Below, in pieces: positions 17,963-31,562 of a stretch of DNA of 64,000 nt (position 1 is the stretch's first letter; each line of letters starts with the position of its first letter). The stretch lies in the NCBI GenBank assembly GCA_038255915.1, contig JBBSKY010000002.1:13371-77370 (forward strand). Reading direction: 5' to 3'. This DNA is from Acidimicrobiales bacterium. Lineage in GTDB: Bacteria > Actinomycetota > Acidimicrobiia > Acidimicrobiales > JAUJNH01. Made by a program: the position numbers and the translations under genes. The notes under the pieces are model-generated. The model made no database searches. It was not told the origin of the DNA and was given only the letters and a program-made list of their open reading frames with translations.

Positions 17963-18220
17963 ATGACAAGGGCCATCACCGTCCGCCTCGACGACGCCGA
18001 CCATGCCGCTCTCGAGGAGCAGGCCGAGCAGCTTCGGGTACGCCCCGGGACGCTGGCGCGTATCCTGGTGCACGCCGGTCTGAGCCGTGGCGACCTCACC
18101 CGCAGCGGCGAAGCTCGCGCCGCGCTCGACCGATTGGTGCAGCGGTCCCACCAGCAGGCGGCAGGCGACGCCGTGACCTCGGTGGCCGAGGCACGGGTCG
18201 CCCTCGGCCCAGACCGATGA
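17963..18220 (+). CDS. Ribbon-helix-helix antitoxin (VapB-like)
   Basis: The RHH-type N-terminus ITVRLDDADHAALEEQA. The stop overlaps the start of the PIN gene (ATGA). Confidence 0.7.
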   Translation: MTRAITVRLDDADHAALEEQAEQLRVRPGTLARILVHAGLSRGDLTRSGEARAALDRLVQRSHQQAAGDAVTSVAEARVALGPDR

Positions 18221-18642: not shown

Positions 18643-18680
18643 TCGGTGCGGTCGCCCGCGAATGAACCGAGGAGCTTTCG

Positions 18681-19349: not shown

Positions 19350-19359
19350 GACCGCGACG

Positions 19360-19839
19360 CTAGAGCGGGGGGAGGTAGGTGGCGGTGGTGAAGTGGCGGC
19401 GCTTGCCTTCGAAGGCCCAGGTCGAGCCCTTCTGGCAGCGGGGTGAGCGGCCGAGGTCGAGGTCGTCGGACGCCTGGAGGACGTCGAGGAGGACGGGGAT
19501 CAGGTCGCCGTGGCTGCACAGGACCAGCGCCGCCTCGTCCCCGGGCGGGGTCGCTCCGGCGCGAGCCATCTTCAGCGCCCCCTCCGGCTCGCTGCCCTCG
19601 GCCAGCGCCGTGGACACCTCGAGGGTGAGCCCGAGCACCGCGGCCAAGGGCGACAGGGTCTCGATGCAGCGCAGCGACGGGCTCGAGACGAGGCGGCCGA
19701 TGGGGAAGCGGTCGCCCAGGAGGTGGACCAGGCCGGTGGCCTGGCGCCGGCCCCGCGACGAGAGCGGGCGCAGCACGTCGAGGCCGTCCCAGCCCGAGCG
19801 GGACTCGGCCTCGGCGTGGCGGACGAGCAGGAGGGTCAT
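19360..19839 (-). CDS. Histidine phosphatase family protein (SixA-like)
   Basis: The RHG-type start MTLLLVRHAEAE and a later CSHGD. ATGA overlap with the upstream NUDIX gene. Confidence 0.75.
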   Translation of the reverse strand: MTLLLVRHAEAESRSGWDGLDVLRPLSSRGRRQATGLVHLLGDRFPIGRLVSSPSLRCIETLSPLAAVLGLTLEVSTALAEGSEPEGALKMARAGATPPGDEAALVLCSHGDLIPVLLDVLQASDDLDLGRSPRCQKGSTWAFEGKRRHFTTATYLPPL

Positions 19840-20243
19840 CCCGGCCCACCGGTCACCAGGGCGGCCGGGAGGGCGTCGAGCACCTCGGCGTCTCGGGCGT
19901 AGGTGAGGCGGTGGCGGGCCGCGGGCAGCGCCAGCCAGGCCACCTCGTCGACCTCGTGGTCGAGCCGGCCGTCACCGGCCGCCACCGACATGGCCCAGTA
20001 GCGCACCACCTTGTCCCGGCCCCGGTGGTCGAGGTAGCGCTGGTTCGGCAGCTCGGGGCCCAGCACGCAGGCCAGTCCGGTCTCCTCGGCCACCTCCCGG
20101 CGGGCGCAGTCCTCGTCGTCCTCCCCCCGGTCGCACTTGCCCTTGGGCAGGCTCCAGTCGTCGTAGCGGGGCCGGTGCACGAGCAGCACCTCGAGACGGT
20201 CGTCGGCCGTGCGGCGCCAGACGGCCCCGCCGGCCGCCCGCAC
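19836..20243 (-). CDS. NUDIX hydrolase
   Basis: Nudix box GKCDRGEDDEDCARREVAEETGL. GTG start 5 nt after the CHAD gene stop; the track ORF extends further upstream over that gene. Confidence 0.8.
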   Translation of the reverse strand: MRAAGGAVWRRTADDRLEVLLVHRPRYDDWSLPKGKCDRGEDDEDCARREVAEETGLACVLGPELPNQRYLDHRGRDKVVRYWAMSVAAGDGRLDHEVDEVAWLALPAARHRLTYARDAEVLDALPAALVTGGPG

Positions 20244-20248
20244 CCGGC

Positions 20249-21826
20249 CTAGGCCAACCACTTCCGCAGCTTCTTGTCGGCGGCGGCGTCCCAGGCCCCG
20301 CGCCAGTCGGAAACGGCCTGGTCGGCCGCCCGCTGCTGCATGCCGGTGAGCAGGCCGGCGGAAAAGGCGCGGGCGGCGGCGCCGGCGCCGGTGAGACCGA
20401 CCGCCCGGGAGCGCAGCCACGCCTCGGCCACCGCCGCGTCCTGGAGGTCGCCCAGCACGCCCTGGATCTCGGCGACGGCGGCGCCGAGCCGCTTGGTCTC
20501 CTTGCCGCAGACGGAGGTCGCGGCCTCGCAGGCGTAGCGGCAGCGCTTGGCCTTCTTGCGCACCTCGTGCAGCAGCTCGATCGGGGTGTCGTCCCCGACC
20601 TGTTCGACCGCCTTGGCCAGGTGGGCCCAGGCCTTGCCGACCCGGGCGGGGACGACGTCGCTGGCCCGCAGGGAGGCGTCCCCGGTGAACGGCGGCATCC
20701 GGCTGGCGCCGACCAGCTGGTCGAGGAGGGCGGCGTAGCGGGCGGTGGCCAGGGCGTCCCCGGCCCGGGAGCGGGCCTTGGCCCGTTCAGCGTCGAGGGT
20801 GCGCAGGAGGGCGGTGGCGGCGACGGCGTCAGGCCCCGCCAGCTCGGAGGTCTGGCGCTGGAGGCGGGCCAGCAGCACATCGGCGTCACGCACCGCCCCC
20901 AGCTCGCCGGCCAGCCAGTACAGCTCGCCCCGGATGTGGGTGACCCACGCTTCGTCGAGGAGGGAGCGGAACGTGGCCAGGTCGCTGCGCAGGCGTCGGG
21001 TGGCCACCCGGGCCTGGTGGACGTCCTCGTCGTCGCCGCCCAGCCGAACGCCGGGGTCGTGGGCCACCAGGCGGAGCGTGCCGGCGGCGATGGCGGCCTG
21101 CACGGCGTCGCCGGCCGAGGACCTGGGCCCGACCCGCTCGACGGTGACGTCGGGCGGGGCCGTGGCCTGGGGCCCGAGGGCCCGGGCGATCTTCGGGGTC
21201 GGGTCGGGGGCGCCGGCGCCGGCGCCCCGCAGCCGCCCCACCACCAGCGGGAGGAGGCGCTCTCCGTCGTTGTCGCCGGGGGCCAGCTCGACCTCGAGCT
21301 CGCGGAAGCGGGCGGCCACCCGCCGGCCGTCCATCACCGACACCTCATCGTCGGCCACCTCGAGGGCGACCCGGCCGTCGGCGTCGAGGACGTTGTGACG
21401 GCGCCGCTTGGTCACCAGCCGGGCCACCGGCTCGAGGTGGCGGCCCCGGGTGGTGGCGGTGACCAGGCTGACGACCTCCGCGGGCGGAGTGCTGTCCGAA
21501 CCGGTGAAGGCCACCTCCGAGCGGCTGAGCGCCGGGCCCCCGTCGCCGGCCGCCGGCAGCTTCACCGTCCACCCCCGCTCCGATCCGTCGCTCGCCGATC
21601 GGTGGCGCAGGCTGAGACCCGAGCGGATGAGCCGCAGGTCGGCGGTGTCCCAGTAGGTGGCGCTGAGGGTGCGCTCGCCCAGGTCGACCACCGAGGGCTG
21701 GGGCGCCTCGTCGGCCTCCGCCGGGGGCGCCTCGTCGACGAGGCCGCCGACCAGGTCCGGCAGCACGAACGTGGCGTGGGCCCCGAGCTTCACCTCATGC
21801 TCAGCGACCTTGCGTGCAGGAGCCAT
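20249..21826 (-). CDS. CYTH (triphosphate tunnel) plus CHAD domain protein
   Basis: N-terminal EHEVKL...ELEVEL strand pattern of CYTH. C-terminal helical His/Arg-rich CHAD repeats (VHQARVATRRLRS, LHEVRKKAKRCRY). Confidence 0.85.
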   Translation of the reverse strand: MAPARKVAEHEVKLGAHATFVLPDLVGGLVDEAPPAEADEAPQPSVVDLGERTLSATYWDTADLRLIRSGLSLRHRSASDGSERGWTVKLPAAGDGGPALSRSEVAFTGSDSTPPAEVVSLVTATTRGRHLEPVARLVTKRRRHNVLDADGRVALEVADDEVSVMDGRRVAARFRELEVELAPGDNDGERLLPLVVGRLRGAGAGAPDPTPKIARALGPQATAPPDVTVERVGPRSSAGDAVQAAIAAGTLRLVAHDPGVRLGGDDEDVHQARVATRRLRSDLATFRSLLDEAWVTHIRGELYWLAGELGAVRDADVLLARLQRQTSELAGPDAVAATALLRTLDAERAKARSRAGDALATARYAALLDQLVGASRMPPFTGDASLRASDVVPARVGKAWAHLAKAVEQVGDDTPIELLHEVRKKAKRCRYACEAATSVCGKETKRLGAAVAEIQGVLGDLQDAAVAEAWLRSRAVGLTGAGAAARAFSAGLLTGMQQRAADQAVSDWRGAWDAAADKKLRKWLA

Positions 21827-21856
21827 CCCGCCAGTTTGCCCGATGATGGGGAGCTC

Positions 21857-24082
21857 CTACCTGCGCTGGAGCAGCGGCCCGGAGACCGTCGCCTCCTTGC
21901 GCTGGCGGCGGGCCCGGCGCTGGGTGCGCTCAGCCAGGAAGGTCTGGGTGTTGTGGCGCTGCGCCGGGTCGGCCGGCTCCACCCGCTGCCAGGTGCCGTC
22001 GGGCCCGAGGGTCCACGCCAGGCAGTCGTCGGACAGGTTCGACGCCAGCACCTCGGCCAGCCGCTTGCGGGACTCGGGCTCGTCGATCTGCACGCACACC
22101 TCGACCCGACGGTCCAGGTTCCTCGGCATCATGTCGGCCGAGCCGATGAGGTAGCGCACCGGGTGCTCCTCGCCGTCGCCGAAGGCGTAGATGCGGGAGT
22201 GCTCGAGGAAGCGGCCGACCAGCGACCGCACCCGGATGCCTTCGCTGAGGCCGGGAACCCCCGGGCGCAGGCAGCAGATCCCCCGAACGACGAGGTCGAT
22301 CTCGACGCCGGCGTTCGAGGCCCGGTACAGGGCCTCGATCACCCTCGGGTCGACCAGGCTGTTCATCTTGAACACCACCCGCCCGGGGCCGCCGTCGCGG
22401 GCCACCCCGGCCTCAGCCTCGATCAGCTCGATGATCCGGTTGCGCAGCGTCGTCGGGGCCAGGAGGATCTTGCGGTAGCGGGTCTGGCGGCTGTAGCCGG
22501 TGAGCAGGTTGAACAGGTCGGTGAGGTCGGCGCCGAGGTCGGGGTCGCTCGACAGCAGGCCGATGTCCTCGTAGGTGCGGGCCGTCTTTGAGTTGTAGTT
22601 GCCGGTGCCGATGTGGACGTAGCGGCGGATGCCGTCCGGCTCCTGGCGCACCACCAGCGCCGTCTTGGAGTGGGTCTTCAGCCCGACCAGGCCGTACACC
22701 ACGTGCACGCCGGCCTCTTCGAGGGCGCGGGCCCACGCCACGTTGGCCTGCTCGTCGAAGCGGGCCTTCAGCTCGACCAGGGCCGCCACCTGCTTGCCCC
22801 GCTCGGCCGCCCGGATCAGCGACTTCACGATCGGGCTGTCGGAGGAGGTGCGGTACAGCGTCTGCTTGATGGTCAGGACGTGGGGGTCGACCGCCGCCTG
22901 CTGGATGAACGCCTCGACCGAGGCGGCGAAGCTCTCGTAGGGGTGGTGGACCAAGACGTCCCGTTCCCGGAGCACGGCGAAGATGTCGACCGGCTCGTCG
23001 TCGTTCGAGGTCAGGCGCCGGGGGGTGGCGGGGACGTGGGGCGGGTCCTTCAGGTCGGGGCGGTCCAGGGCGTAGAGGGCGAACAGGCCCGTCAGGTCGA
23101 GGGGTCCCGGGACGTCGTAGAGGTCGTCGGGGTGCAGCTCGAGCTCGCGCACCAGCAGCTCGCGCACCTCGTCGGTCATGGACGGCTCGACCTCGACCCG
23201 GACGGCTCGACCGAAGCGGCGGCGGCGCAGCTCGATCTCGACCAGGGCCAGCAGGTCGTCGGCCTCCTCGTCCTCGAGGGTGAGATCCGCGTTGCGGGTG
23301 ACCCGGAAGGCGTGGTGCTCGACGACCTCCATCCCCGGGAAGAGGCGGTCGAGGTGGACGGCGATGAGCTGCTCGAGCGGCACGAAGGTGAAGCGGCCCT
23401 TGAGGCCGTCGTCGTCACCGCCGGGAACGGCCACGAAGCGGGGCAGAAGGGGCGGCACCTTCACCCGGGCGAAGCGGCGCTGGCCGCTGTGGGGGTCGCC
23501 CACGATGACGGCCAGGTTCAGTGACAGGTTGGAGATGTAGGGGAAGGGGTGGCTCGGGTCGACAGCCAGGGGCGTCAGCACCGGGAAGATGCGCTCGTGG
23601 AAGACCTGGTCGAGGGCCTCGCGCTGGTGTGCCCCCACGTCCTCGATCCGCACCACCTCGATACCGTGCCCGACCAGGCTGGCGCTCACCTCCCGGTCGG
23701 CCGCCACGTGGCGTTCGACCAGGCCCAGCAGCGCCGTGCGCACCTCCTGCAGCTGCTCCCCCGGGGTGCGCCCGTCGGGGCTAGGGACCCCGACGTCGGC
23801 GGCCACCTGGTCCTTCAGGCCGGCGATCCGCACCTGGAAGAACTCGTCGAGGTTGTTGGCGAAGATAGCCAGGAACTTGGCCCGCTCGAGCAGGGGCAGG
23901 TCGGGCTCTTCAGCCTGGGCCAGCACCCTGGCGTTGAAGTCGAGCCACGACACCTCGCGGTTGAGGTAGCGCTCGCCGCTCGGGCGAAGGGCCGCCTCCT
24001 GCTCGGCCCGGGGCAGGTCGGCCAGCTCGGCCGCCAGAGGCGAGAGCCGGGTGTCGAGCGTCTTCTCCTCGGTGTCCGCCAT
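21857..24082 (-). CDS. ppk: Polyphosphate kinase 1
   Basis: Full-length PPK1 pattern (YLNREVSWLDFNARVL, FLAIFANNLDEFFQVR, TGNYN, HSK...; two PLD-like C-terminal domains). Confidence 0.95.
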   Translation of the reverse strand: MADTEEKTLDTRLSPLAAELADLPRAEQEAALRPSGERYLNREVSWLDFNARVLAQAEEPDLPLLERAKFLAIFANNLDEFFQVRIAGLKDQVAADVGVPSPDGRTPGEQLQEVRTALLGLVERHVAADREVSASLVGHGIEVVRIEDVGAHQREALDQVFHERIFPVLTPLAVDPSHPFPYISNLSLNLAVIVGDPHSGQRRFARVKVPPLLPRFVAVPGGDDDGLKGRFTFVPLEQLIAVHLDRLFPGMEVVEHHAFRVTRNADLTLEDEEADDLLALVEIELRRRRFGRAVRVEVEPSMTDEVRELLVRELELHPDDLYDVPGPLDLTGLFALYALDRPDLKDPPHVPATPRRLTSNDDEPVDIFAVLRERDVLVHHPYESFAASVEAFIQQAAVDPHVLTIKQTLYRTSSDSPIVKSLIRAAERGKQVAALVELKARFDEQANVAWARALEEAGVHVVYGLVGLKTHSKTALVVRQEPDGIRRYVHIGTGNYNSKTARTYEDIGLLSSDPDLGADLTDLFNLLTGYSRQTRYRKILLAPTTLRNRIIELIEAEAGVARDGGPGRVVFKMNSLVDPRVIEALYRASNAGVEIDLVVRGICCLRPGVPGLSEGIRVRSLVGRFLEHSRIYAFGDGEEHPVRYLIGSADMMPRNLDRRVEVCVQIDEPESRKRLAEVLASNLSDDCLAWTLGPDGTWQRVEPADPAQRHNTQTFLAERTQRRARRQRKEATVSGPLLQRR

Positions 24083-24113
24083 GTCGGGCAGGCTACGCGG
24101 AGGGCCCAGCCCG

Positions 24114-24374
24114 TCAGCCCTCGGGGACCCCGAGATCCCACTCGAGGTACAGCGCCTCGCGCTCGGCGTCCTTCACGACCCGCTCTCGGTTGCGGCGGAA
24201 CTGCGGGTCGTGCGGGGGCAGCAGCAGCAGGCGAGCGTTGACCCGCTGGCGGAACTCGTCGATGGCCTTGCGGTCACCGGCGACGCCCTGCACGTCCCAG
24301 TGGGGGGCCACGGGGCCCAGGTACACGATGCGCACCTGACCACGCGGGCCCTGGTTGTCCGAGAGCATCGACAT
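24114..24374 (-). CDS. Small conserved-looking hypothetical protein
   Basis: 86 aa with balanced composition, between htrA and ppk on the same strand. No family recognised. Confidence 0.5.
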   Translation of the reverse strand: MSMLSDNQGPRGQVRIVYLGPVAPHWDVQGVAGDRKAIDEFRQRVNARLLLLPPHDPQFRRNRERVVKDAEREALYLEWDLGVPEG

Positions 24375-24385
24375 GGTGGGCGACC

Positions 24386-25687
24386 CTACCGCTGCCCGAG
24401 CTCGGCCTCCACCGCCTGGCGCTTGGAGTCCCGGACCAGATCGATCTTTAGCTTGTCACCCGGCTTCTTGGACCGGATGATCCGGCTGACGTCGGCCACC
24501 GAGCTCACCGGCTCGCCCCCCAGGGCGACGAGGACGTCGTTGGCGAGCACACCGGCCCGGTCGGCGGCCGATCCCGGCTCCACCGACTGCACGGCGGCAC
24601 CCCGGTCGACGCCCAGGCTGAGGCGGGCGGCGATGTCGGGTGTGACCGTGACGGTGCCGACGCCGAGGAAGGCGCCCGAGGTGCGGATGGGCCCGCCGCC
24701 GGCCTTGCGCAGCTCGTCGATGATCGGCTTGATGGTGTTGGCGGCGATGGCGAAGCCGATGCCCTCGGCGCCCCCCGCGGTCCCGGACGGGTCGCGCAGC
24801 ACAGCGGTGTTGATGCCGATCACCTGGCCGGTGGTGTCGACCAGCGGGCCGCCCGAGTTCCCCGGGTTGATCGCGGCGTCGGTCTGCAGCAGGCCGTCGA
24901 GGTTGCCGAGGGTGCGGCCCTTGGCGCTGATGATCCCCGTGGTGACGGTCGGCCCGCCCACCAGGGCCAGGGCGTTGCCGATGGCGACGACGTCGTCGCC
25001 CACCTCGGCGGCGTCGCTGTCACCGAGGGAGGCCGTGGGCAGCCCCGAGGCACCCTCGATCTTCAGCAGGGCCAGGTCGTTGGCGGCGTCTGAGCCGACG
25101 AGGGCGGCCCTGCGGGGCCGGGTCTCGTTGAACAGGGTGACGGTGAGATCTCCTCGACCGGCCACGACGTGGGCGTTGGTGAGCACCTCGCCGTCGGCGG
25201 AGATGATGACGCCGGTGCCGGTGCCGAGCCGGCCGCCACCGCCACGCAGCTCAACGGTGACGACGGCGGGCTCGACCTTGGCCAGCACATCCTTCACGCT
25301 CATCTGCGGGCCCGGCACCGCAGCCCCCGGCCTGGGCGTGACCGATCGGGTGACGGGGGCCGACGTGGCGGGGGGCGCGGCGGCCTTCTCCTCGGCGCCG
25401 TCGACGGCGGCGACCACGCCGCCACCGATCAGGGCGCCGGCCAGGGCGGCCACGCCCGCCACCCACACCCAGGCCCGGCTCTTCGGTCGGTCGCCGCCGT
25501 CACCAGGCGGGACGAACGATCCACCGACGGGTCCAGGAGCGGGACCTGAGGGCGGGGCCCACGGCCGGTCCGCCGGCGGGCTCCACGGCTGGGTCGGCGG
25601 AGCCGCCACGGGGCCGGGCTGCCAGCCCCCCTGCTCGGGGTGGCTGCTCGGCTTGGGCCAGCCGCTGAGATCTTCCACGTCGGTCAC
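24386..25687 (-). CDS. htrA: HtrA/DegP-family serine protease with PDZ domain (active-site residues present)
   Basis: LTNAHVV, NDLALLKI and GNSGGPLVD give an intact triad. PDZ tail. GTG 25687 chosen because it sits 10 nt after GGAGG; the track TTG at 25696 is too close to the SD. Confidence 0.9.
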   Translation of the reverse strand: MTDVEDLSGWPKPSSHPEQGGWQPGPVAAPPTQPWSPPADRPWAPPSGPAPGPVGGSFVPPGDGGDRPKSRAWVWVAGVAALAGALIGGGVVAAVDGAEEKAAAPPATSAPVTRSVTPRPGAAVPGPQMSVKDVLAKVEPAVVTVELRGGGGRLGTGTGVIISADGEVLTNAHVVAGRGDLTVTLFNETRPRRAALVGSDAANDLALLKIEGASGLPTASLGDSDAAEVGDDVVAIGNALALVGGPTVTTGIISAKGRTLGNLDGLLQTDAAINPGNSGGPLVDTTGQVIGINTAVLRDPSGTAGGAEGIGFAIAANTIKPIIDELRKAGGGPIRTSGAFLGVGTVTVTPDIAARLSLGVDRGAAVQSVEPGSAADRAGVLANDVLVALGGEPVSSVADVSRIIRSKKPGDKLKIDLVRDSKRQAVEAELGQR

Positions 25688-25729
25688 CCTTCTCAATCCT
25701 CCAGGAACCCCGGGGGTCGTCCCTCGGTC

Positions 25730-25755
25730 AACGACCTCGGGTACGAACAGGTTCC
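25730..25755 (-). promoter_or_regulatory. Candidate ECF (SigE-type) promoter for htrA
   Basis: The minus strand reads GGAAC-N17-CGTT, about 45 nt upstream of the htrA start. Confidence 0.5.
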
Positions 25756-25760
25756 AACCG

Positions 25761-25787
25761 GGAACCTTCCCACGGGGGACGTGCGTT
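25761..25787 (+). promoter_or_regulatory. Candidate ECF (SigE-type) promoter for whiB
   Basis: The plus strand reads GGAAC-N18-CGTT, followed by AGGAGG and ATG 25821. Confidence 0.45.
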
Positions 25788-25820
25788 CACCACCTGAACC
25801 CAAGCAGGAGGCAGTCGAGG

Positions 25821-26075
25821 ATGGAAACCGAGTGGATGCCCCGAGGCCGGTGCCGTGACATTCAGCCGGGCACGTTCTTCCCAAGCGACGGGGTGGGCGT
25901 CGAGGTGGCCCGCCGCGTCTGCGCCGAGTGCCCAGTCCAGGCCCCCTGTCTCGAGTACGCCCTCCTCCATCGCATCGACCACGGAGTGTGGGGCGGCGCC
26001 TCCGAACGCGAACGCCGAAGGATCCTGAGGTCCCGCCGCCTGGAGGCTGCCGCCGTGGGTGGGCCACCTACCTAG
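25821..26075 (+). CDS. whiB: WhiB-family Fe-S transcription factor
   Basis: Four Cys in WhiB spacing (RCRD...VCAECPVQAPC), GVWGG turn, basic tail. It is the terminal part of track ORF 24051..26075. Confidence 0.85.
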   Translation: METEWMPRGRCRDIQPGTFFPSDGVGVEVARRVCAECPVQAPCLEYALLHRIDHGVWGGASERERRRILRSRRLEAAAVGGPPT

Positions 26076-26098
26076 CTAGCTAGCTAGCTAGGTGGCCC
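26061..26098 (+). terminator. Long palindrome containing (CTAG)5; probable whiB terminator hairpin
   Basis: GGGCCACCTA C (CTAG)5... TAGGTGGCCC. The outer 10-bp arms are perfectly complementary and the inner CTAG run is self-complementary. The whiB stop TAG is the first TAG of the run. Confidence 0.6.
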
Positions 26099-26234
26099 GA
26101 AGCCCCCCGGGGGGGCTCGGGGGGGCGGAGCTTGCGGAGCCCCCTCGTCAGGCGGCGAGAAGGGCAGCTTGCTGCCCCGCCGTTACAAGCGTGTCAGCCA
26201 GGCCGAAGGCCTGTCCGGAAGAGGAGGGGGGTCC

Positions 26235-26260
26235 GGGGGGAGGCGCTTGCGCCTCCCCCC
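26235..26260 (-). terminator. Perfect 12-bp GC hairpin after the sigE-operon last gene
   Basis: GGGGGGAGGCGC-TT-GCGCCTCCCCCC lies 30 nt beyond the stop at 26290. A second copy of the right arm (CTTGCGCCTCCCCC) sits at 26267..26280. Confidence 0.55.
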
Positions 26261-26289
26261 GGCACACTTGCGCCTCCCCCTGGCGCGTC

Positions 26290-27249
26290 TCAGACGATCA
26301 ATCGGATGACGTGGCGGGAGGCCTGGCGGAGGCGGGCGGGGAAGGTGGGGGGCGACGGGTCGGGGATGGAGCGGGCGGCGGCCAGGACCTCCGACGGCGG
26401 CCCGTCGCCGACGACGGTGGTGGTGGTGCCCCGCTGGGACCAGGTGACCACCTGGCCACCGGCCCACGTCCAGCGCCGGCCCATGCTGCCCCGAACGGCG
26501 AGGCGTTCGCCGCCCGTGGGCAGGGCTGCCGGGTCGGCCTCGCCCAGCTGGGAGAACACCGACAGGGTGCGCACCCCGTCGCCGTAGAGGACCTGGACGG
26601 CCGGGCCCCGACGGTAGGCGCCGAGGCGGGCATAGCCCCCGGCCAGCTCGAGGGGAGCCGGGAACGGGCTCGGCACCTGGTCGAGCCGGGGCACCGGGCG
26701 GGGCTCCCGGACCGAGACCGAGCTGGTCCCCACCGTTCGCAGCCCTTCCAGCGTGATGAACTCAACGACTCGCACGGTGACCCCCCGGGCGTCGTAGACC
26801 TGTCGGCGCAGCAGCAGCCCGGTGGCGTCGTCGACGTCGGCCTGCTCGGTGACCTGCCCGTTGAGGCCGAGCAGGACCCGGGTGGTGGGCCGGCCCAGGA
26901 TCAGCGGCCCGACCTCGGCCCGCACCTGGTACTTGGCGGCGGGATCGGGGGCGGTGCGGGCGGTGCCGACCCCTCCGGTCCAGGTCAGCGCCGGTTGCTG
27001 CACGCCGACGCCCAGCTCGAGCTCGCTGCCTTTGCCCTTCACCGGCATCGACTCCTCGTGGCCGCCGCCGTCGCCGTCGACCCAGCGGATCAGCACCGAG
27101 CCGTCGAAGGCCACCGAGCTCGAGGCGGCCTGCGCCCGGCGCAGCACCTCGGCGTCGCCGCCCGCCCGGGCCGGCACGGCGGTGAGCCCGGACACGACCA
27201 GGGCCAAGGCGGCGGGGACCGCCAGGCAGGCCGCGCCCCTGGGCCTCAT
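26290..27249 (-). CDS. Secreted RseB/MucB-like (LolA-fold) protein, tentative
   Basis: ATG 27249 overlaps the anti-sigma stop (ATGA). Has a signal peptide (ACLAVPAALALVVSGLTAVPARA). The position as third gene of the sigE operon suggests the function. Confidence 0.45.
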   Translation of the reverse strand: MRPRGAACLAVPAALALVVSGLTAVPARAGGDAEVLRRAQAASSSVAFDGSVLIRWVDGDGGGHEESMPVKGKGSELELGVGVQQPALTWTGGVGTARTAPDPAAKYQVRAEVGPLILGRPTTRVLLGLNGQVTEQADVDDATGLLLRRQVYDARGVTVRVVEFITLEGLRTVGTSSVSVREPRPVPRLDQVPSPFPAPLELAGGYARLGAYRRGPAVQVLYGDGVRTLSVFSQLGEADPAALPTGGERLAVRGSMGRRWTWAGGQVVTWSQRGTTTTVVGDGPPSEVLAAARSIPDPSPPTFPARLRQASRHVIRLIV

Positions 27250-27893
27250 CGGGTGAACGAGATCGGCATGGCCGCAGGGGCCAGTCCCGACACTGCGTCC
27301 GGTCCCGGCGAGGAGGTGGAGTGCTGCGAGACGAACGACGCCACGGCCGGCCGGCTGGGGTCGGCGGGCCCCTCCCGGCCGACCAGGCCCAGCACCCCGA
27401 CGCCCGCCGCCGCCACGGCTGCGGTGGCGGCCAGGAGCTGGCGGGTGCGGGGCCGCAGCGAGGCGTGGGCGGGTCGGGCCGCCGGAGCCGGCCAGGCCCA
27501 CGCTGGGCGCAGGACGTCCCGGGGCGGGTCGATGAGCGGCAGCGCCCGCAGGGCCGTGCGGGCCCAGGCCACCTCGTCGTGCTCGGCGGCACAGGCGGGG
27601 CAGGCGGCCAGGTGGTTGTCGATCCCGGCCCGCAGGTCGATCGCCACCTCACCGTCGAGGCAGGCCGAGATCAGGTCGCCGACGTGCACCGCCGGGGTGG
27701 CCCGCAGGATCCCGGCCGGCGCCTCCAGGGACGGCAGACCGCGCACGGCCAGGCGAGATGCCTCGACCTGGTCGCGCTCGGCCCCGCAGGCGGAGCAGCC
27801 GTCGATGTGGGCGGCCACCTCCCTGGCTTCGGCCGGGGTCAGCTCCCCGTCGAGCCAGGCCGACAGCAGGTCACCGGGATGCGCCACGGTCAT
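27246..27893 (-). CDS. Membrane anti-sigma factor with two tandem zinc-binding (HxxxCxxC) anti-sigma domains
   Basis: HIDGCSAC and HLAACPAC motifs sit in two roughly 57-aa homologous segments. A TM helix (LLAATAAVAAAGVGVLGLV) follows. ATGA overlaps at both ends. Confidence 0.8.
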   Translation of the reverse strand: MTVAHPGDLLSAWLDGELTPAEAREVAAHIDGCSACGAERDQVEASRLAVRGLPSLEAPAGILRATPAVHVGDLISACLDGEVAIDLRAGIDNHLAACPACAAEHDEVAWARTALRALPLIDPPRDVLRPAWAWPAPAARPAHASLRPRTRQLLAATAAVAAAGVGVLGLVGREGPADPSRPAVASFVSQHSTSSPGPDAVSGLAPAAMPISFTR

Positions 27894-28417
27894 GATTCCC
27901 GCCCGGCCAGGGCCTCGCGCAGCAGGGAGCGGCCCCGGTGGATGCGGCTGCGGACGGTGCCCACGGGCACGCCGAGCGAGGTGGCGATCTCCTGATAGGG
28001 CAGCCCGGCGACGTCGCAGAGGACCACGGCCACCCGGAACTCGTCGGGGAGCCCGTCGAGCGCCCGCTGGACGTCGGCCGACAGGGTGGCGTCGGAGAAC
28101 GTCTCCTCGGCGGCCTTGGTGGCCGGCAGCACCCGGTCGGCGCGGTCGGGCTCCTCGGGCAGCAGGTCGGTGGGGCGGCGCTGGCGGCGCCGGACGCCGT
28201 CGAGGAAGACGTTGGTGGTGATCCGGCTCAACCAGCCCTCCAGCGACCCGGGCCGATAGGTGGCGAGGCCCCGGTGGAGCCGGAGCAACACCTCCTGCAC
28301 GAGGTCGCGTGCGTCGTCGTCCTTGCCGGTGAGCCGGTAGGCCACGGTGTAGAGGAACCGCCCGTGCGTCCGGGCCACCTCTTCCCACGTCGGTACGGAA
28401 CCACCGTCGTCAGACAA
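27890..28417 (-). CDS. sigE: ECF sigma factor SigE
   Basis: PTWEEVARTHGRFLYTVAYRLTG..DARDLVQEV...GWLSRITTNVFLD closely follows mycobacterial SigE. The region 4 helix-turn-helix motif is YQEIATSLGVPVGTVRSRIHRGR. TTG start per the track. Confidence 0.9.
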   Translation of the reverse strand: MSDDGGSVPTWEEVARTHGRFLYTVAYRLTGKDDDARDLVQEVLLRLHRGLATYRPGSLEGWLSRITTNVFLDGVRRRQRRPTDLLPEEPDRADRVLPATKAAEETFSDATLSADVQRALDGLPDEFRVAVVLCDVAGLPYQEIATSLGVPVGTVRSRIHRGRSLLREALAGRES

Positions 28418-28441
28418 CGACGGCAGCCCTCAGTCGGTTCC
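28416..28441 (-). promoter_or_regulatory. ECF-type motif overlapping the sigE start codon (possible autoregulatory promoter)
   Basis: The minus strand reads GGAAC-N17-CGTT. The last two T of CGTT are the first two bases of the TTG start. Confidence 0.3.
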
Positions 28442-28455
28442 CTCCAGGGGAACGC

Positions 28456-28728
28456 TCAGTCCCGCTTGGCCTTCTGCTCGCGCTCGACGAGGAGCGCCTC
28501 GAGCTCGGACTTGGACAGCGTGACCTTCTCGTCGCCGTTGACCTTGGCCGCCTCGAGGGCCGCCGCCGCTTCCTTGGCATCCTTCTTGTGGTCGGTCTTG
28601 GCCGACTTCTCGAACTCGGTCTTGGCTTCGCCGAGCGAGCGGGCCAGCTTGGGCAGCTTGGCGCCACCAAAGATCAGCACGACGATCAGCAGCACGATGA
28701 TGAGCTCGGGGGCGCCGATGTTCGGCAT
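28456..28728 (-). CDS. tatA: Twin-arginine translocase subunit TatA
   Basis: MPNIGAPELIIVLLIVVLIFGGAKLPKLARSLGEA (TM helix, FG hinge, amphipathic helix). GGAGG upstream of ATG 28728. Confidence 0.9.
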   Translation of the reverse strand: MPNIGAPELIIVLLIVVLIFGGAKLPKLARSLGEAKTEFEKSAKTDHKKDAKEAAAALEAAKVNGDEKVTLSKSELEALLVEREQKAKRD

Positions 28729-28797
28729 GCTGTGGCCTCCTAGGCAGGCAGTTCCAATGGATACGGTACCGCTCCCCGGGGCGGATGGCACACGCGG

Positions 28798-28828
28798 CGG
28801 GGCCCGCCAGGTGCGCTGGCGGGCCCCG
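28798..28828 (-). terminator. Perfect 13-bp stem hairpin after whiB1-like gene
   Basis: CGGGGCCCGCCAG-gtgcg-CTGGCGGGCCCCG lies 30 nt after the stop at 28858. No U-tract. Confidence 0.6.
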
Positions 28829-28857
28829 ACGGGGGAAGGTTCAGCTGTTGGGGGTGA

Positions 28858-29133
28858 TCAGGCGGTGGACACGGTGCGGCGGGAGACGGCCCGGCTGCGG
28901 CGGATGCGGCGGCGTTCCCGCTCGCTGAGACCGCCCCAGATCCCGAACTTCTCGCCGTTGGCCAGCGCGTACTCGAGGCAGTCGTCCTGCACGACGCAGC
29001 CCCGGCAGACCTCCTTGGCCTCGCGCGTCGAGGCTCCCCGCTCGGGGAAGAACAGGTCCGGGTCCACCCCCATGCAGTTGGCTCGGCTCTGCCAGTCAGG
29101 CACATCGCTTCGGAGCGTGGTGACCAGTTCCAT
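28858..29133 (-). CDS. whiB: WhiB-family Fe-S transcription factor (WhiB1-like)
   Basis: ANCMGVDPDLFFPERG...AKEVCRGCVVQDDCLEYAL...GIWGGLSERERRRIRR. Confidence 0.9.
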   Translation of the reverse strand: MELVTTLRSDVPDWQSRANCMGVDPDLFFPERGASTREAKEVCRGCVVQDDCLEYALANGEKFGIWGGLSERERRRIRRSRAVSRRTVSTA

Positions 29134-29290
29134 CGGCTTGACCTCCCTCGTGGTCCGTCAGGGGAAGCCCCCTTTAGCACCGATGTAGTTACAGCGGTGT
29201 GATTCTCTCTCACCTTCCCCTCGTTGCGCAAGTGGCAACCTCGATTTCCCCCAGCGACACGCGGAGGACACCGTTCGTAGACTCGGGCCG

Positions 29291-29539
29291 ATGCCCAACA
29301 TCGGCGCCCCTGAGCTGATCATCCTCCTGCTGATCACGGGGGTGATCGTGGCCCCGATCGTGGGCGTGTTCACGCTCATCGACATCGCTCGACGTCCGGA
29401 GGCGGCGTTCGTGGCGGCCGGCCAGAGCCGTACGACGTGGCTGGTCATCGCCGTCCTGTCGGTGGTCGTGCCCTGCGTCTGGTTCGCTTCGGTCTACTAC
29501 CTGCTCGCCGTCCGCCCGAAGCTGGCCACCCGCTCCTGA
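29291..29539 (+). CDS. DUF2516-like small membrane protein with a TatA-like N-terminus
   Basis: The pattern LIDIARRPEAAFVAAGQSRTTWLVI...YLLAVRPKL resembles DUF2516 as I recall it. The first 15 aa (MPNIGAPELIILLLI) nearly equal the TatA start. Confidence 0.6.
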   Translation: MPNIGAPELIILLLITGVIVAPIVGVFTLIDIARRPEAAFVAAGQSRTTWLVIAVLSVVVPCVWFASVYYLLAVRPKLATRS

Positions 29540-29543
29540 GCGA

Positions 29544-31562
29544 TCAGCCCGCCCGCCGACGGCTCATGGTCCGCTTCTGCTCGAGGAAGTCGACCAGCAC
29601 GTAGTCGCCGAGGGTCTCGGGCGTGGTGAAGAAGGCGCGGCCCCGGTTCAGCTCGGTCATCTTCTCCACGAAGTGGCGCAGGGCCGGGGACGCATCGAGC
29701 ATGAAGGTGTTGATGGTGATCCCCTCACGGGTGCACCGGTTGACCTCGGCCAGGGTGGCGTCGCGGGTGGCCGGGTGGGTGGGGTAGTGGAAGAAGGGGG
29801 CACCGTCGGCCTGGAGGTGGGCGGTGGGCTCGCCATCGGTGATCATGATGATCTGGCGGGTGCCCGTCTGGCGGGCCAGCAGCCGGCGGCCCAGCAGGAG
29901 GGCGTGCTGCATGTTGGTGCCGTAGACGAAGTCCCAGGACACCTCGGGCAGCTGCTCGGGCTTCAGCTCGCGGGCCACCTCGGAGAAGCCGATCAGGCCC
30001 AGGTAGTCCCGGGGGTACTGGCTCGAGATCAGGAAGTGCAGGGCCATGGCCACCTTCTTGGCCGCCAGGAAGCTGTCGCGCATCGGCATCGACAGGGACA
30101 GATCGAGCATCACCACGGTGGAGCTGCGGGTCAGGTGCTCGCTGCGCTCGACCTCGAAGTCGTCGGGGCTCAGCCGCACCGGGGTGCCCGGCCCGCCCCG
30201 CAGGACGGCGTTGCGCACGGTGCGCTGGATGTCGAGGTTGAACGGGTCGCCGAAGGCGTAGGGCTTGGTGTCGTCGGTGCGCTCGACGCCGATGCCCTGG
30301 CGGAGGGTCTCGTGGCGGCCCAGCTTGTCCTTGGCCAGCTTGGAGAACAGCTGGGAGAGGGCGTTCCGGCCGATCTTGCGCAGGCCCCGTGGGGTCAGCT
30401 CGTAGCGCCCCTCCCGCCGTTCGAGCAGGCCGGCCTCCTCGAGCTGGCGGGCCAGGGCGGCCAGCCGATCCAGGCTGGCGGTGGCGTCGTCGCCGAGCAG
30501 CTGGCGGGCCCGCTCCAGGTCGATCTGGGCCAGGGCGCCCGGGTTGGCGGCGCCCCGCAGCATCTGCTCCATCTGGTCGAGATCGCCCAGGTCCCGCATC
30601 GTTGAGGTCGCCTCGCCCATCGACAGCGGCTGGTCGCCCTCGAAGCCGTGGCCCTGGTCCCAGCCCAGTGCCGGGAACATCTGCTGCAGGTTGGCGCCCA
30701 GCCGGCTGACCTGGAACGACAGGTCCATGTCGGCCAGGAGGGCGTCGGACAGCTGCTGCAGCTGGGCCCGCTGCTCGGGCGACATCGAGTTCAGCATCTG
30801 CTGGGCGGCGGCCATCTGCTCGGCCATCTGGGCCAGCAGCTCGTCGAGGTTGGCCGGGTGGCCGGGGAAGAAGGCGCCGTGGCGGGCGAGGAACTGCTCG
30901 AACTGCTCCTGGGTGTCGGTGCCCTGCCGGCGGGCCTCGATCAGAGCGTTCAGGTCGTTGAACATGTCCTTCATGGCCTGCAGCTGGGCGGGGTCCTGGG
31001 CCGCCCGCTGCATCGACTGGGCCATCTCGCCGAACCGGGCGGCCAGCATCTGCTCCCGCAGCTCCTCGACCAGGCGGGCGAAGGCCTCCTGGGCCGCGGT
31101 CGAGGTGAAGTCGTACCGCTGCAGCCCCTGCACCCGGCCGGCCAGGTCGTCGGGCAGCAGGTCGAGCTGGAGGCGGCGCTCGGCCATGGCCGTGCCGCTG
31201 ACCTCCTGGCGCCGCTGGTCAGCGCTGGTGGCGGCCTGCTCGGCCAGCCGGTCGATCTCGGTCCGCTCAGTCGCCAGGACCTCGGCCAGCTGCTCGGCGA
31301 CCCTCTCGTACACCCCGCCGAGATCGTGCTGCTCCAGGATCTCCCGGCGCTGACGCCGCAGCTGCTCGAGCAGCTCACGCAGGCCCTGGACCCGCTCGCC
31401 GTCGGGCGTCTCGAACCCCGACTGGAGGAGCCGGCGCAGGGCCGAGCCGACGTCGCCGTGGTACAGCAGGTCGTCGGTGAGCTGGGACAGCAGCTCGTCG
31501 GCGTCGATGTCGAACCCGGCCTGGGTCCCGTCGAAGCGGGAGTAGCGGTGGCGCCACGGCAT
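29544..31562 (-). CDS. VWA-domain protein (partner of ChlI/MoxR-like ATPase)
   Basis: ATG 31562 (MPWRHRYSRFDG). Long acidic/Gln-rich helical N-region. C-terminal VWA domain with MIDAS motif VVMLDLSLSM. Confidence 0.8.
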   Translation of the reverse strand: MPWRHRYSRFDGTQAGFDIDADELLSQLTDDLLYHGDVGSALRRLLQSGFETPDGERVQGLRELLEQLRRQRREILEQHDLGGVYERVAEQLAEVLATERTEIDRLAEQAATSADQRRQEVSGTAMAERRLQLDLLPDDLAGRVQGLQRYDFTSTAAQEAFARLVEELREQMLAARFGEMAQSMQRAAQDPAQLQAMKDMFNDLNALIEARRQGTDTQEQFEQFLARHGAFFPGHPANLDELLAQMAEQMAAAQQMLNSMSPEQRAQLQQLSDALLADMDLSFQVSRLGANLQQMFPALGWDQGHGFEGDQPLSMGEATSTMRDLGDLDQMEQMLRGAANPGALAQIDLERARQLLGDDATASLDRLAALARQLEEAGLLERREGRYELTPRGLRKIGRNALSQLFSKLAKDKLGRHETLRQGIGVERTDDTKPYAFGDPFNLDIQRTVRNAVLRGGPGTPVRLSPDDFEVERSEHLTRSSTVVMLDLSLSMPMRDSFLAAKKVAMALHFLISSQYPRDYLGLIGFSEVARELKPEQLPEVSWDFVYGTNMQHALLLGRRLLARQTGTRQIIMITDGEPTAHLQADGAPFFHYPTHPATRDATLAEVNRCTREGITINTFMLDASPALRHFVEKMTELNRGRAFFTTPETLGDYVLVDFLEQKRTMSRRRAG

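What the first reader, a model, noticed from the sequence alone, without database searches (positions are those of the whole stretch)
25730..25787. Back-to-back ECF (SigE-type) promoter motifs between htrA and whiB
Seen: the 133-nt divergent spacer has GGAAC-N17-CGTT on the minus strand (25755..25730), pointing at htrA. It has GGAAC-N18-CGTT on the plus strand (25761..25787), pointing at whiB. The two -35 elements form the inverted repeat GGTTCC-aaccg-GGAACC. Established: ECF sigma factors of the SigE group recognise GGAAC...CGTT-type promoters, and htrA is a classical SigE-regulon gene. Inference: one sigma factor, encoded 2 kb away, may fire both genes from a compact bidirectional unit. That would put a WhiB regulator under envelope-stress control.
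Basis: partly seen in the sequence, partly recalled or inferred. Interest (0 to 1): 0.55.

Follow-up and report, generated by a model that had tools for sequence, protein, structure and literature searches.

The report
Back-to-back ECF sigma promoters, htrA/whiB
Two stress-sigma-factor promoter motifs sit back to back between a protease gene and a WhiB regulator gene in an uncultured Acidimicrobiales bacterium; comparison with relatives says they are real promoters of an already well-known kind, so the finding is sound but fairly ordinary.

Summary
GGAAC-N17-CGTT lies on the minus strand (25755..25730), 42 nt before the htrA start. GGAAC-N18-CGTT lies on the plus strand (25761..25787), 33 nt before the whiB start.

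- **Chance:** the strict motif occurs only three times in 64 kb. The third copy sits directly upstream of the neighbouring ECF sigma gene. No back-to-back pair appeared in 2000 shuffles.
- **Sigma factor:** it is a clear relative of M. tuberculosis SigE (ECF14). Published sigmaE/sigmaH promoters in mycobacteria and corynebacteria read GGAAC-N17/18-cGTT.
- **Close relatives:** in seven lineages both -35 and both -10 elements are 96-100% conserved. The 5-nt gap and the distal whiB spacer vary.
- **Across Acidimicrobiia:** 62 of 80 whiB orthologues carry GGAAC-N17-CGT[C/A/T] upstream (0.3 expected). About 20 are placed for a leaderless mRNA.
- **htrA promoter:** it is lineage-restricted. The gap between the two -35 elements ranges from 3 to 42 nt, so the palindrome is incidental.

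Not shown: which sigma fires these promoters (a sigmaH-type factor could cross-read them), the inducing signal, and the transcription starts.

Verdict: a real, conserved promoter pair, a new member of a known kind, of modest interest.

The parts
25730..25755 (-). Predicted ECF-type promoter of htrA: -35 GGAAC(C) at 25755..25750, 17-nt spacer, -10 CGTT at 25733..25730. Predicted transcription start about 25719-25723.
   Evidence: Exact match. The -35 is 100% and the -10 is 96% identical across 6 related lineages. The same arrangement occurs in L063, L094, L116, L119, L152 and L167.
25761..25787 (+). Predicted ECF-type promoter of whiB: -35 (G)GGAAC(C) at 25760..25766, 18-nt spacer, -10 CGTT at 25784..25787. 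Predicted transcription start about 25794-25798.
   Evidence: Exact match. The -35 and -10 are 100% identical across 6 related lineages while the distal spacer is 46%. An orthologous GGAAC-N17-CGT[C/A/T] lies upstream of whiB in 62 of 80 distant loci.
25750..25766 (.). Inverted repeat GGTTCC-aaccg-GGAACC formed by the two -35 elements. Judged incidental.
   Evidence: The gap is fixed at 5 nt but variable in sequence in the close clade (63% identity). The gap is 3, 15, 16, 23, 32 or 42 nt in other lineages that have both promoters.
25821..26075 (+). whiB-like gene (84 aa). Shine-Dalgarno AGGAGG at 25806..25811.
   Evidence: Pfam PF02467, E = 1.1e-21. 3873 homologues, those named being mostly Acidimicrobiales. 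Closest solved structures are Streptomyces WhiB, then WhiB1.
24386..25687 (-). htrA (433 aa from GTG 25687): trypsin-like protease plus PDZ domain. Shine-Dalgarno GGAGGA at 25702..25697.
   Evidence: NCBIfam TIGR02037, E = 5.9e-80; Pfam Trypsin_2 and PDZ. The start codon is supported by the alignment of relatives.
28416..28441 (-). Third copy of the motif, GGAACC-N16-CGTT, immediately upstream of and overlapping the start of the ECF sigma gene. Presumed autoregulatory promoter.
   Evidence: GGAAC[C/T]-N16-CGTT was found upstream of sigE orthologues in 24 of 30 related loci with a detected sigE orthologue, two of the other six being cut off at or inside the sigma gene, and the -10 is always CGTT.
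27890..28417 (-). ECF sigma factor gene, SigE-like (ECF14-like).
   Evidence: NF007229 SigE at 223.9 bits (curated cut-off 265; next family 112 bits). PDB M. tuberculosis SigE at 178 bits, E = 1e-51; the stretch GTVRSRIHRGR in region 4 is identical.
27246..27893 (-). Anti-sigma factor gene with two zf-HC2 (ZAS) motifs. Its start overlaps the sigma stop codon.
   Evidence: Pfam PF13490, two matched stretches, E = 2.8e-18. Coordinates.
26290..27249 (-). Third gene of the sigma operon: a 319-aa protein with no family match and a signal-peptide-like N-terminus.
   Evidence: No Pfam or NCBIfam hit. Present at the same position in relatives L081, L083, L085 and L088.
21857..24374 (-). An 86-aa ORF and polyphosphate kinase (ppk) directly downstream of htrA on the same strand. 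Possibly co-transcribed from the htrA promoter.
   Evidence: Gaps of 11 and 31 nt. No terminator-like site found. The order is conserved in relatives. Co-transcription is inferred.
25704..25729 (+). Third GGAAC on the plus strand, inside the htrA 5' leader, followed after 17 nt by GGTC. Possible weak upstream whiB promoter, or an element of the htrA leader. Unresolved.
   Evidence: GGGAACC is conserved in 6 of 7 close lineages. The -10 position reads CGTC in L081, L084 and L088 and GGTC in the window and L094.

Best explanation
The 133-nt htrA-whiB spacer holds two independent, divergent promoters of the actinobacterial sigmaE/sigmaH type (GGAAC-N17/18-cGTT), placed back to back with their -35 elements 5 bp apart.

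When the ECF sigma factor is released from its membrane-anchored anti-sigma, which carries two ZAS motifs, RNA polymerase carrying it would do three things:
- It would transcribe its own operon from the identical motif at 28441..28416.
- It would start transcription leftward near 25721. That gives an htrA mRNA with a leader of about 33 nt, possibly continuing into the 86-aa ORF, ppk and the CHAD gene.
- It would start transcription rightward near 25796. That gives a whiB mRNA with a leader of about 25 nt and an AGGAGG ribosome-binding site.

The most likely sigma is the SigE-like factor encoded 2.1 kb away. The WhiB protein would then pass the signal on to other promoters, presumably by binding region 4 of the primary sigma factor as other Wbl proteins do.

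The whiB promoter is old and is shared across Acidimicrobiia. The htrA promoter was added in some lineages only.

Shown here: the sequence motifs, their conservation, the family of the sigma, and the gene order. Inferred: the transcription starts, which sigma acts, the inducing signal, co-transcription of ppk, and what WhiB does.
For: - **Exact motifs well above chance.** 3 matches against 0.45 expected, and a back-to-back pair in 0 of 2000 shuffles. All three lie in intergenic DNA just upstream of, and pointing at, genes of one neighbourhood.
- **Match to experimentally defined promoters.** GGAACY-N16/17-CGTT in M. smegmatis (PMC5430705) and GGAAC-N17-18-cGTT in C. glutamicum (PMC10012870).
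- **The sigma is SigE-like**, and a stretch of its region 4, GTVRSRIHRGR, is identical to that of M. tuberculosis SigE.
- **The sigma's own upstream motif is conserved.** It was found upstream of sigE orthologues in 24 of 30 related loci with a detected sigE orthologue, and two of the other six are cut off at or inside the sigma gene.
- **Phylogenetic footprint in 7 close lineages**. The -35 elements are 100% conserved and the -10 elements 96-100%. The gap is 63%, the distal whiB spacer 46% and the leaders about 60%.
- **Enrichment across the class.** In 834 kb from 80 distant loci, 62 of 102 matches to GGAAC-N17-CGT[ACT] lie within 300 nt upstream of whiB on the correct strand (0.30 expected). 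Another 19 lie upstream of sigE.
- **Leaderless placement.** In 20 loci the -10 ends 8-9 nt before the ATG and there is no ribosome-binding site. That is the geometry of a leaderless mRNA.
- **Shared extended -35.** Both the whiB and sigE promoter sets read GGGAAC[C/T].
- **Gene linkage.** whiB lies next to the sigE operon in 23 of the 80 distant loci and in the close relatives whose contigs reach that far.
- **No competing signal.** No sigma-70-like promoter and no Rfam family was found in the spacer.
Against: - There are no transcription data of any kind.
- Across the class the whiB -10 is CGTC (64%) or CGTA (31%), while the sigma's own -10 is CGTT in all 23 sequences. Another ECF sigma sharing the GGAAC -35 could therefore be the usual reader of whiB.
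- The whiB spacer in the window is N18, not the N17 found almost everywhere else.
- In C. glutamicum, sigmaH also reads every GGAAC/cGTT promoter tested (PMC10012870). Only 64 kb of this genome is visible, so a SigH-like factor cannot be excluded.
- The htrA promoter is absent from nearly all distant loci with a divergent htrA and present in only 5 of 21 such metagenome loci.
- Spacer blocks conserved in the close clade (GGGAACCTTCCCAC and GGTACGAAC) are not explained by sigma contacts alone.
Confidence: 0.65

Rival explanations
1. The motifs are real ECF promoters, but a different ECF sigma encoded elsewhere in the genome reads them mainly or also. Candidates are a SigH/SigR-type (ECF12) factor, or one that prefers a CGTC/CGTA -10. 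The neighbouring SigE-like factor would then be only one of their targets.
For: - In C. glutamicum all GGAAC/cGTT promoters were read by sigmaH as well as sigmaE, and none was sigmaE-exclusive (PMC10012870).
- M. tuberculosis sigE P3 is SigH-dependent (PMC10027907).
- Across the class the whiB -10 is CGTC or CGTA, while the sigE gene's own -10 is always CGTT.
- whiB keeps its promoter in many loci where no sigE gene is nearby.
Against: - No second ECF sigma gene lies in the 64-kb window (tblastn).
- In this clade all three promoters share GGAACC and CGTT.
- The extended -35 GGGAAC[C/T] is common to the whiB and sigE sets.
- whiB is physically linked to the sigE operon in 23 of 80 loci.
- A C at the last -35 position is the feature that sigmaE requires (PMC10012870).
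Confidence: 0.25
2. The inverted repeat GGTTCC-N5-GGAACC is the operator of a dimeric transcription factor that co-regulates the two divergent genes, and the CGTT tetramers are coincidental.
For: In the close clade the half-sites are invariant, and the gap is fixed in length but variable in sequence. That is the usual signature of a dimer-binding site.
Against: - In other lineages carrying both motifs the gap is 3, 15, 16, 23, 32 or 42 nt.
- Most whiB orthologues have only the plus-strand half together with a -10 at exactly 17 nt.
- Both CGTT elements are conserved at the correct distance.
- The same GGAAC-N17-CGTT stands alone upstream of the sigma gene.
Confidence: 0.05
3. Chance matches in GC-rich intergenic DNA with no function.
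For: The motif has only 9 specified bases. With the relaxed -10 CGTH the window count is close to chance (7 against 3.84).
Against: - No back-to-back pair in 2000 shuffles.
- 62 observed against 0.30 expected upstream of whiB orthologues.
- Motif columns are 96-100% conserved among close relatives while flanking columns are 46-63%.
Confidence: 0.02

Closest known systems
SigE/SigH-dependent promoters of Mycobacterium and Corynebacterium (ECF14 and ECF12 sigma factors)
   Same: The core elements and spacing are the same. GGAACY-N16/17-CGTT is given for M. smegmatis (PMC5430705) and GGAAC-N17-18-cGTT for C. glutamicum, where transcription starts were mapped and in vitro transcription was done (PMC10012870). 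The sigma here is most similar to M. tuberculosis SigE. Leaderless SigE-dependent transcripts are known, for example sigE P2 (PMC10027907).
   Different: The host is an uncultured Acidimicrobiales bacterium, a different class from the model actinobacteria. The sigma scores below NCBI's equivalog cut-off (223.9 against 265 bits). The anti-sigma is membrane-anchored with two ZAS motifs, whereas M. tuberculosis RseA is soluble (PMC8999054). Nothing has been tested experimentally.
The sigE-rseA-htrA-tatB locus of M. tuberculosis and sigE-cseE-tatB of C. glutamicum
   Same: An ECF sigma gene, a ZAS anti-sigma gene, htrA and a Tat component gene are linked (PMC10027907, PMC10012870; window). M. tuberculosis ppk1 is induced through SigE (PMC10027907), and here ppk lies directly behind htrA.
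   Different: Here htrA is not in the anti-sigma operon. It is a separate unit with its own ECF-type promoter, and a whiB gene lies between them on the other strand. The Tat gene is a tatA-like gene upstream of the sigma gene rather than tatB downstream. The M. tuberculosis SigE review mentions no Wbl gene.
C. glutamicum SigH control of the wbl genes whcA and whcE
   Same: An ECF sigma of the same promoter class controls WhiB-like regulator genes (PMC3489674). Several Streptomyces wbl genes lie close to sigma factor genes (PMC6282962).
   Different: That case involves SigH (ECF12) and the WhiB4 and WhiB1 classes. The WhiB here belongs to an Acidimicrobiia-wide group closest to Streptomyces WhiB and then WhiB1. 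It has a class-wide conserved promoter that is often leaderless.
E. coli sigmaE (RpoE) control of degP/htrA
   Same: An envelope protease gene is placed under an ECF sigma with a GGAAC -35 element (own knowledge; the GGAAC -35 and GTC -10 structures are cited in PMC10012870).
   Different: E. coli sigmaE is a more distant relative of this sigma than M. tuberculosis SigE is (59.9 against 178 bits). It has a different -10 (GTC/TCAAA) and a different anti-sigma system. The shared name 'SigE' does not mean orthology.
Symmetric bidirectional promoters that share one -10 region on both strands (own knowledge, not checked here)
   Same: Divergent transcription from one short stretch of DNA.
   Different: Here two complete promoters stand back to back, with predicted starts about 75 bp apart. 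The symmetry lies in the -35 elements and is not conserved in spacing.

Membership tests
Actinobacterial sigmaE/sigmaH-type (ECF14/ECF12) promoter | -35 GGAAC and -10 cGTT separated by 17 (sometimes 18) nt | tested here: met
   htrA has N17, whiB has N18 and the sigma gene has N17. The published consensus is in PMC5430705 and PMC10012870, where N18 is seen at dnaJ2.
Actinobacterial sigmaE/sigmaH-type (ECF14/ECF12) promoter | Intergenic position, pointing at a gene, with the -10 a short distance upstream of the ribosome-binding site or start codon | tested here: met
   The -10 ends 42 nt before the htrA GTG and 33 nt before the whiB ATG. Shine-Dalgarno sequences lie in between. In 20 orthologous loci the -10 ends 8-9 nt before the ATG.
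Actinobacterial sigmaE/sigmaH-type (ECF14/ECF12) promoter | A cognate ECF sigma encoded in the genome, with DNA-recognition regions like those of characterised SigE | tested here: met
   NF007229 at 223.9 bits, below the equivalog cut-off of 265. M. tuberculosis SigE at 178 bits, with the region 4 stretch GTVRSRIHRGR identical.
Actinobacterial sigmaE/sigmaH-type (ECF14/ECF12) promoter | The same motif upstream of the sigma gene itself (autoregulation, typical of ECF sigmas) | tested here: met
   28441..28416 in the window. Found upstream of sigE orthologues in 24 of 30 related loci with a detected sigE orthologue.
Actinobacterial sigmaE/sigmaH-type (ECF14/ECF12) promoter | Conservation of the -35 and -10 in orthologous intergenic regions while the spacer and flanks drift | tested here: met
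   for the close clade. for the class, where the whiB promoter is conserved. The htrA promoter is conserved only in some lineages.
Actinobacterial sigmaE/sigmaH-type (ECF14/ECF12) promoter | A mapped transcription start and dependence on the sigma in vivo or in vitro | not testable with these tools
   No transcriptome data or biochemistry are available for this uncultured organism.
Exclusive SigE (ECF14) regulon member, as opposed to SigH/other ECF | Recognition by the neighbouring sigma and not by another ECF sigma | tested here: inconclusive
   A C at the last -35 position fits the sigmaE requirement (PMC10012870), but sigmaH reads such promoters too. Across the class the whiB -10 (CGTC/CGTA) differs from the sigE gene's own -10 (CGTT). 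Only 64 kb of the genome is visible.
Palindromic operator of a dimeric transcription factor | Half-sites at a fixed distance across orthologous loci | tested here: not met
   The gap is 5 nt in the close clade but 3, 15, 16, 23, 32 or 42 nt elsewhere. Most loci have only one half.
Sigma-70-type (housekeeping) promoter | TTGACA-like and TATAAT-like hexamers 16-18 nt apart in the spacer | tested here: not met
   No such site was found in 25688..25820. This is a simple consensus scan, and actinobacterial housekeeping promoters with a weak -35 could escape it.

The most novel reading that the evidence does not exclude
Across the class Acidimicrobiia, one particular WhiB paralogue is the main conserved target of a SigE-like ECF sigma besides the sigma's own operon. 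This would be a hard-wired ECF-to-Wbl relay. It is often made as a leaderless mRNA, and whiB is kept next to ppk and frequently next to the sigma operon. In the window's clade, and in a few others, the promoter was mirrored to bring htrA, and perhaps ppk and the CHAD gene, into the same regulon. That would link envelope or redox stress, polyphosphate metabolism and Wbl-mediated reprogramming of the housekeeping holoenzyme.
Probability: 0.4. Interest if true: 0.45.

Novelty: new member of a known kind. Interest (0 to 1): 0.33.

Why it matters
If confirmed, this gives a first, testable piece of regulatory wiring for Acidimicrobiia. The class is abundant in soil, water and sludge, is poorly cultured, and has almost no experimental genetics.
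- It names a conserved ECF promoter, its probable sigma, and a conserved WhiB target.
- It extends the SigE-HtrA-Tat-polyphosphate association known from mycobacteria to a deep actinobacterial branch.
- It adds a Wbl regulator to that association.
- The motif (GGGAAC[C/T]-N16-CGT[T/C/A]) could be used to predict the regulon in complete metagenome-assembled genomes.

It does not reveal a new mechanism.

Tried and rejected
- **Relaxed motif in the window.** GGAAC-N16-18-CGTH gave only four extra hits, all N16 with CGTC and close to chance (7 against 3.84). None is offered as a regulon member.
- **ECF motif upstream of htrA in distant loci.** A relaxed pattern ([GT]GAA[CT]-N16-18-[CG]GTN) found nothing convincing apart from L063. 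A class-wide htrA promoter is rejected.
- **Sigma-70-like promoters and intrinsic terminators, 18000-29600.** Nothing in the spacer, and no terminator between htrA and ppk.
- **Rfam search of 25400-26400 at E <= 1.** Only weak miRNA-type hairpin hits outside the spacer, so there is no known RNA element.
- **Second ECF sigma in the window.** tblastn found none.
- **Palindromic operator.** Considered, then rejected on the variable gap.
- **The 319-aa third gene of the sigma operon.** I first called it 'RseB-like'. It has no Pfam or NCBIfam match, so the label was dropped.
- **A -10-like CGTA within the conserved htrA spacer block.** No GGAAC lies at the right distance from it (by eye).

Full report
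**1. The observation**

The sequence is exactly as described.
- On the minus strand, GGAAC (25755..25751) is followed after 17 nt by CGTT (25733..25730).
- On the plus strand, GGAAC (25761..25765) is followed after 18 nt by CGTT (25784..25787).
- The two -35 elements form GGTTCC-aaccg-GGAACC (25750..25766).

The whiB ATG is at 25821, preceded by AGGAGG at 25806..25811. The htrA start is the GTG at 25687, preceded by GGAGGA at 25702..25697. An alignment with relatives supports both starts. The divergent spacer is therefore 133 nt, as stated.

**2. The neighbourhood**

WhiB homologues and related loci come almost entirely from Acidimicrobiales metagenome-assembled genomes. The window is 72.6% G+C.

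On the minus strand, from high to low coordinates:
- a WhiB2-like second whiB (28859..29133);
- a tatA-like gene (28455..28727);
- an ECF sigma gene (27890..28417);
- an anti-sigma gene with two zf-HC2 motifs (27246..27893);
- a 319-aa gene with no family match (26290..27249).

whiB (25821..26075) lies on the plus strand, convergent with that operon. Then, on the minus strand again, come htrA (24386..25687), an 86-aa ORF, ppk (21857..24082), and CYTH/CHAD, NUDIX, a histidine-phosphatase-like gene and PhoU.

The sigma is SigE-like.
- Its best NCBIfam model is NF007229 'SigE' at 223.9 bits. This is below the equivalog cut-off of 265 but double the next family.
- Its best solved structure is M. 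tuberculosis SigE (178 bits, E = 1e-51, against 104 bits for SigH). The stretch GTVRSRIHRGR in region 4 is identical.
- M. tuberculosis SigE belongs to group ECF14 and SigH to ECF12 (PMC8999054).

**3. More than chance**

- GGAAC-N16-19-CGTT occurs three times in the 64 kb (0.91 expected). These are the two sites of the finding and a third at 28441..28416 (minus), directly upstream of the sigma gene.
- With N17-18 the mean over 2000 dinucleotide-preserving shuffles is 0.4455. Three or more matches occurred in 26 shuffles. A back-to-back pair occurred in none.
- With the -10 loosened to CGTH there are only four further hits, near chance.

**4. Comparative evidence**

*(a) The sigma gene's own promoter.*
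- GGAAC[C/T]-N16-CGTT lies upstream of the sigE orthologue in 24 of the 30 related loci where one was detected. Two of the remaining six (L085, L088) are cut off at or inside the sigma gene.
- In the 23 distinct N17 sequences the -10 is CGTT without exception, usually followed by G.

*(b) The whiB promoter.*
- 63 of 80 species-level loci from the genome collection carry GGAAC-N16-18-CGTN on the correct strand within 300 nt of the whiB orthologue, almost all with N17.
- In the 834 kb of those loci there are 102 matches to GGAAC-N17-CGT[ACT]. Of these, 62 lie upstream of whiB (0.30 expected from the background rate), 19 upstream of sigE, and 21 elsewhere.
- In 20 loci the -10 ends 8-9 nt before the ATG with no ribosome-binding site, the geometry of a leaderless mRNA. 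In most others it ends 20-32 nt before the ATG, with a GGAGG in between.
- In a more mixed metagenome sample, 36 of 76 loci carry the motif.

*(c) Close relatives.* Seven lineages (the window, L094, L081, L083, L085, L088, L090) have WhiB 80-94% identical and the same gene order. Mean identity to the window in each segment:

| Segment | Identity |
|---|---|
| Both -35 elements | 100% |
| whiB -10 | 100% |
| htrA -10 | 96% |
| 5-nt gap between the -35 elements | 63% |
| Distal whiB spacer | 46% |
| Two leaders | about 60% |

*(d) The htrA promoter is patchy.* Among about 25 distant loci with a divergent htrA, only L063 has it. In the metagenome set, 5 of 21 such loci have it.

*(e) The gap varies.* Where both promoters exist, the gap between the -35 elements is:
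- 5 nt in the window's clade and L094;
- 3 nt in L102;
- 15 nt in L116 and L118;
- 16 nt in L063, L100 and L119;
- 23 nt in L113;
- 32 nt in L167;
- 42 nt in L152.

The palindrome is therefore a by-product of two promoters lying back to back, not a conserved unit.

**5. What it most likely is and how it works**

These are two separate ECF-type promoters. Their form matches the experimentally defined sigmaE/sigmaH promoters of mycobacteria (GGAACY-N16/17-CGTT, PMC5430705). It also matches those of C. glutamicum (GGAAC-N17-18-cGTT, with mapped starts and in vitro transcription; one proven N18 case, dnaJ2; PMC10012870).

Taking the last base of the -10 as about position -10, as the leaderless orthologues imply, the starts fall near 25721 (minus) and 25796 (plus). 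That is about 75 bp apart.

The most economical reading is that the neighbouring SigE-like factor, once freed from its anti-sigma, fires its own operon, whiB and htrA together.

The htrA transcript may continue into ppk. The intergenic gaps are 11 and 31 nt and no terminator-like site was found. [quoted passage not shown]

The two -35 centres are about 10 bp apart, one helical turn. Whether two holoenzymes can occupy the pair at once is unknown.

**6. Weak points and rivals**

- *Which sigma acts is not shown.* In C. glutamicum every GGAAC/cGTT promoter tested was also read by sigmaH, and none was sigmaE-exclusive (PMC10012870). M. tuberculosis sigE P3 is SigH-dependent (PMC10027907).
- *The -10 elements differ across the class.* The whiB -10 is CGTC (64%) or CGTA (31%), whereas the sigma's own is always CGTT. 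This could mean a suboptimal target site, or a different sigma with the same -35. In the window's clade all three promoters read GGAACC...CGTT, but whiB has N18.
- *The signal is unknown.* The anti-sigma has two redox-type ZAS motifs and, by eye, one membrane segment. 'Envelope stress' is an assumption.
- *The operator rival fails* on the variable gap.
- *The chance rival fails* on conservation.

**7. Relation to what is known**

- The locus recalls M. tuberculosis sigE-rseA-htrA-tatB and C. glutamicum sigE-cseE-tatB (PMC10027907, PMC10012870). It differs in three ways: htrA is a separate unit, the Tat gene lies upstream, and a whiB gene is inserted.
- Control of wbl genes by an ECF sigma is known: C. 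glutamicum SigH controls whcA and whcE (PMC3489674). Wbl genes near sigma genes have been noted in Streptomyces (PMC6282962).
- The M. tuberculosis SigE review does not mention any Wbl.
- The WhiB here is closest to Streptomyces WhiB (64 bits) and then WhiB1 (52 bits) among solved structures. It is distinct from the WhiB2-like gene 3 kb away (44% identity).
- E. coli sigmaE control of degP is only an analogy. E. coli sigmaE scores 59.9 bits against this sigma, compared with 178 bits for M. tuberculosis SigE.

**8. Verdict**

The sigma's identity, the signal and the transcription starts remain untested.

It is a new member of a known kind. The most useful new point is that the ECF-type whiB promoter is conserved across Acidimicrobiia and is often leaderless. 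Interest is modest.

Noticed in passing
window 26051-26098: A perfect palindrome of about 48 nt containing (CTAG)5 overlaps the whiB stop codon (TAG 26073-26075). It is the only run of three or more CTAG units in the window, and none of the 173 related loci has one. CTAG is about five-fold under-represented in the window (29 against 158 expected). It could be a terminator hairpin, a recent insertion or an assembly oddity.
   Followed up: partly
window 27246-27893 (minus): The anti-sigma factor has two zf-HC2 (ZAS) motifs in tandem (HIDGCSAC and HLAACPAC) and, by eye, one transmembrane segment. M. tuberculosis RseA is a soluble protein with a single ZAS motif.
   Followed up: partly
window 28376-28441 (minus): The CGTT of the sigma-gene promoter (28419..28416) overlaps TTG 28417, the only possible upstream start codon. 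The next in-frame start, GTG 28378, would remove the conserved PTWEEV segment that aligns with M. tuberculosis SigE. Transcripts from the tatA promoter and from this promoter may therefore give different sigma isoforms, as described for M. tuberculosis sigE P1-P3. Unresolved.
   Followed up: partly
window 28859-29133 (minus): A second whiB gene (MELVTTLRSDVPDWQSRANC...), which by eye resembles the Streptomyces WhiB / WhiB2 type, lies upstream of the tatA-like gene. It is present at the same place in relatives L083, L090, L092 and L093. No ECF motif was seen upstream of it.
   Followed up: partly
window 18681-25687 (minus): htrA, an 86-aa ORF, ppk, CYTH/CHAD, NUDIX, a histidine-phosphatase-like gene and PhoU lie on one strand. 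The gaps measured between the first genes are 11-31 nt, and no terminator-like site was found. This may be a long polyphosphate and phosphate operon behind the htrA promoter. A divergent ppk next to whiB is conserved in many distant loci that lack htrA.
   Followed up: partly
window 25703-25729 (plus): A third GGGAACC lies inside the htrA 5' leader and is conserved in 6 of 7 close lineages. After 17 nt it is followed by GGTC (window, L094) or CGTC (L081, L084, L088). It may be a weak second whiB promoter running across the htrA promoter, or an element of the htrA leader.
   Followed up: partly
window 25740-25748 and 25760-25773: Two spacer blocks are conserved in the close clade well beyond the core elements: GGTACGAAC in the htrA spacer, and GGGAACCTTCCCAC, which contains the small palindrome GGGAA-nn-TTCCC, at the whiB -35. 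They are not conserved in distant lineages. They may mark an extra regulator, or simply reflect limited divergence.
   Followed up: no
L019 7482-7507, L024 7490-7515, L021 7056-7081, L037 7137-7162: In some distant loci GGAAC-N17-CGTT lies inside or just beyond the sigE coding region rather than upstream of it. This recalls the internal P3 promoter of M. tuberculosis sigE.
   Followed up: no
window 26212-26285: A long hairpin-forming inverted repeat lies just downstream of the 319-aa gene. It is picked up only as weak, spurious miRNA-precursor matches. It may be a terminator.
   Followed up: no
window 3540-4601 (plus): A second HtrA-like protease gene (29% identity to the htrA of the finding) lies elsewhere in the window.
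   Followed up: no
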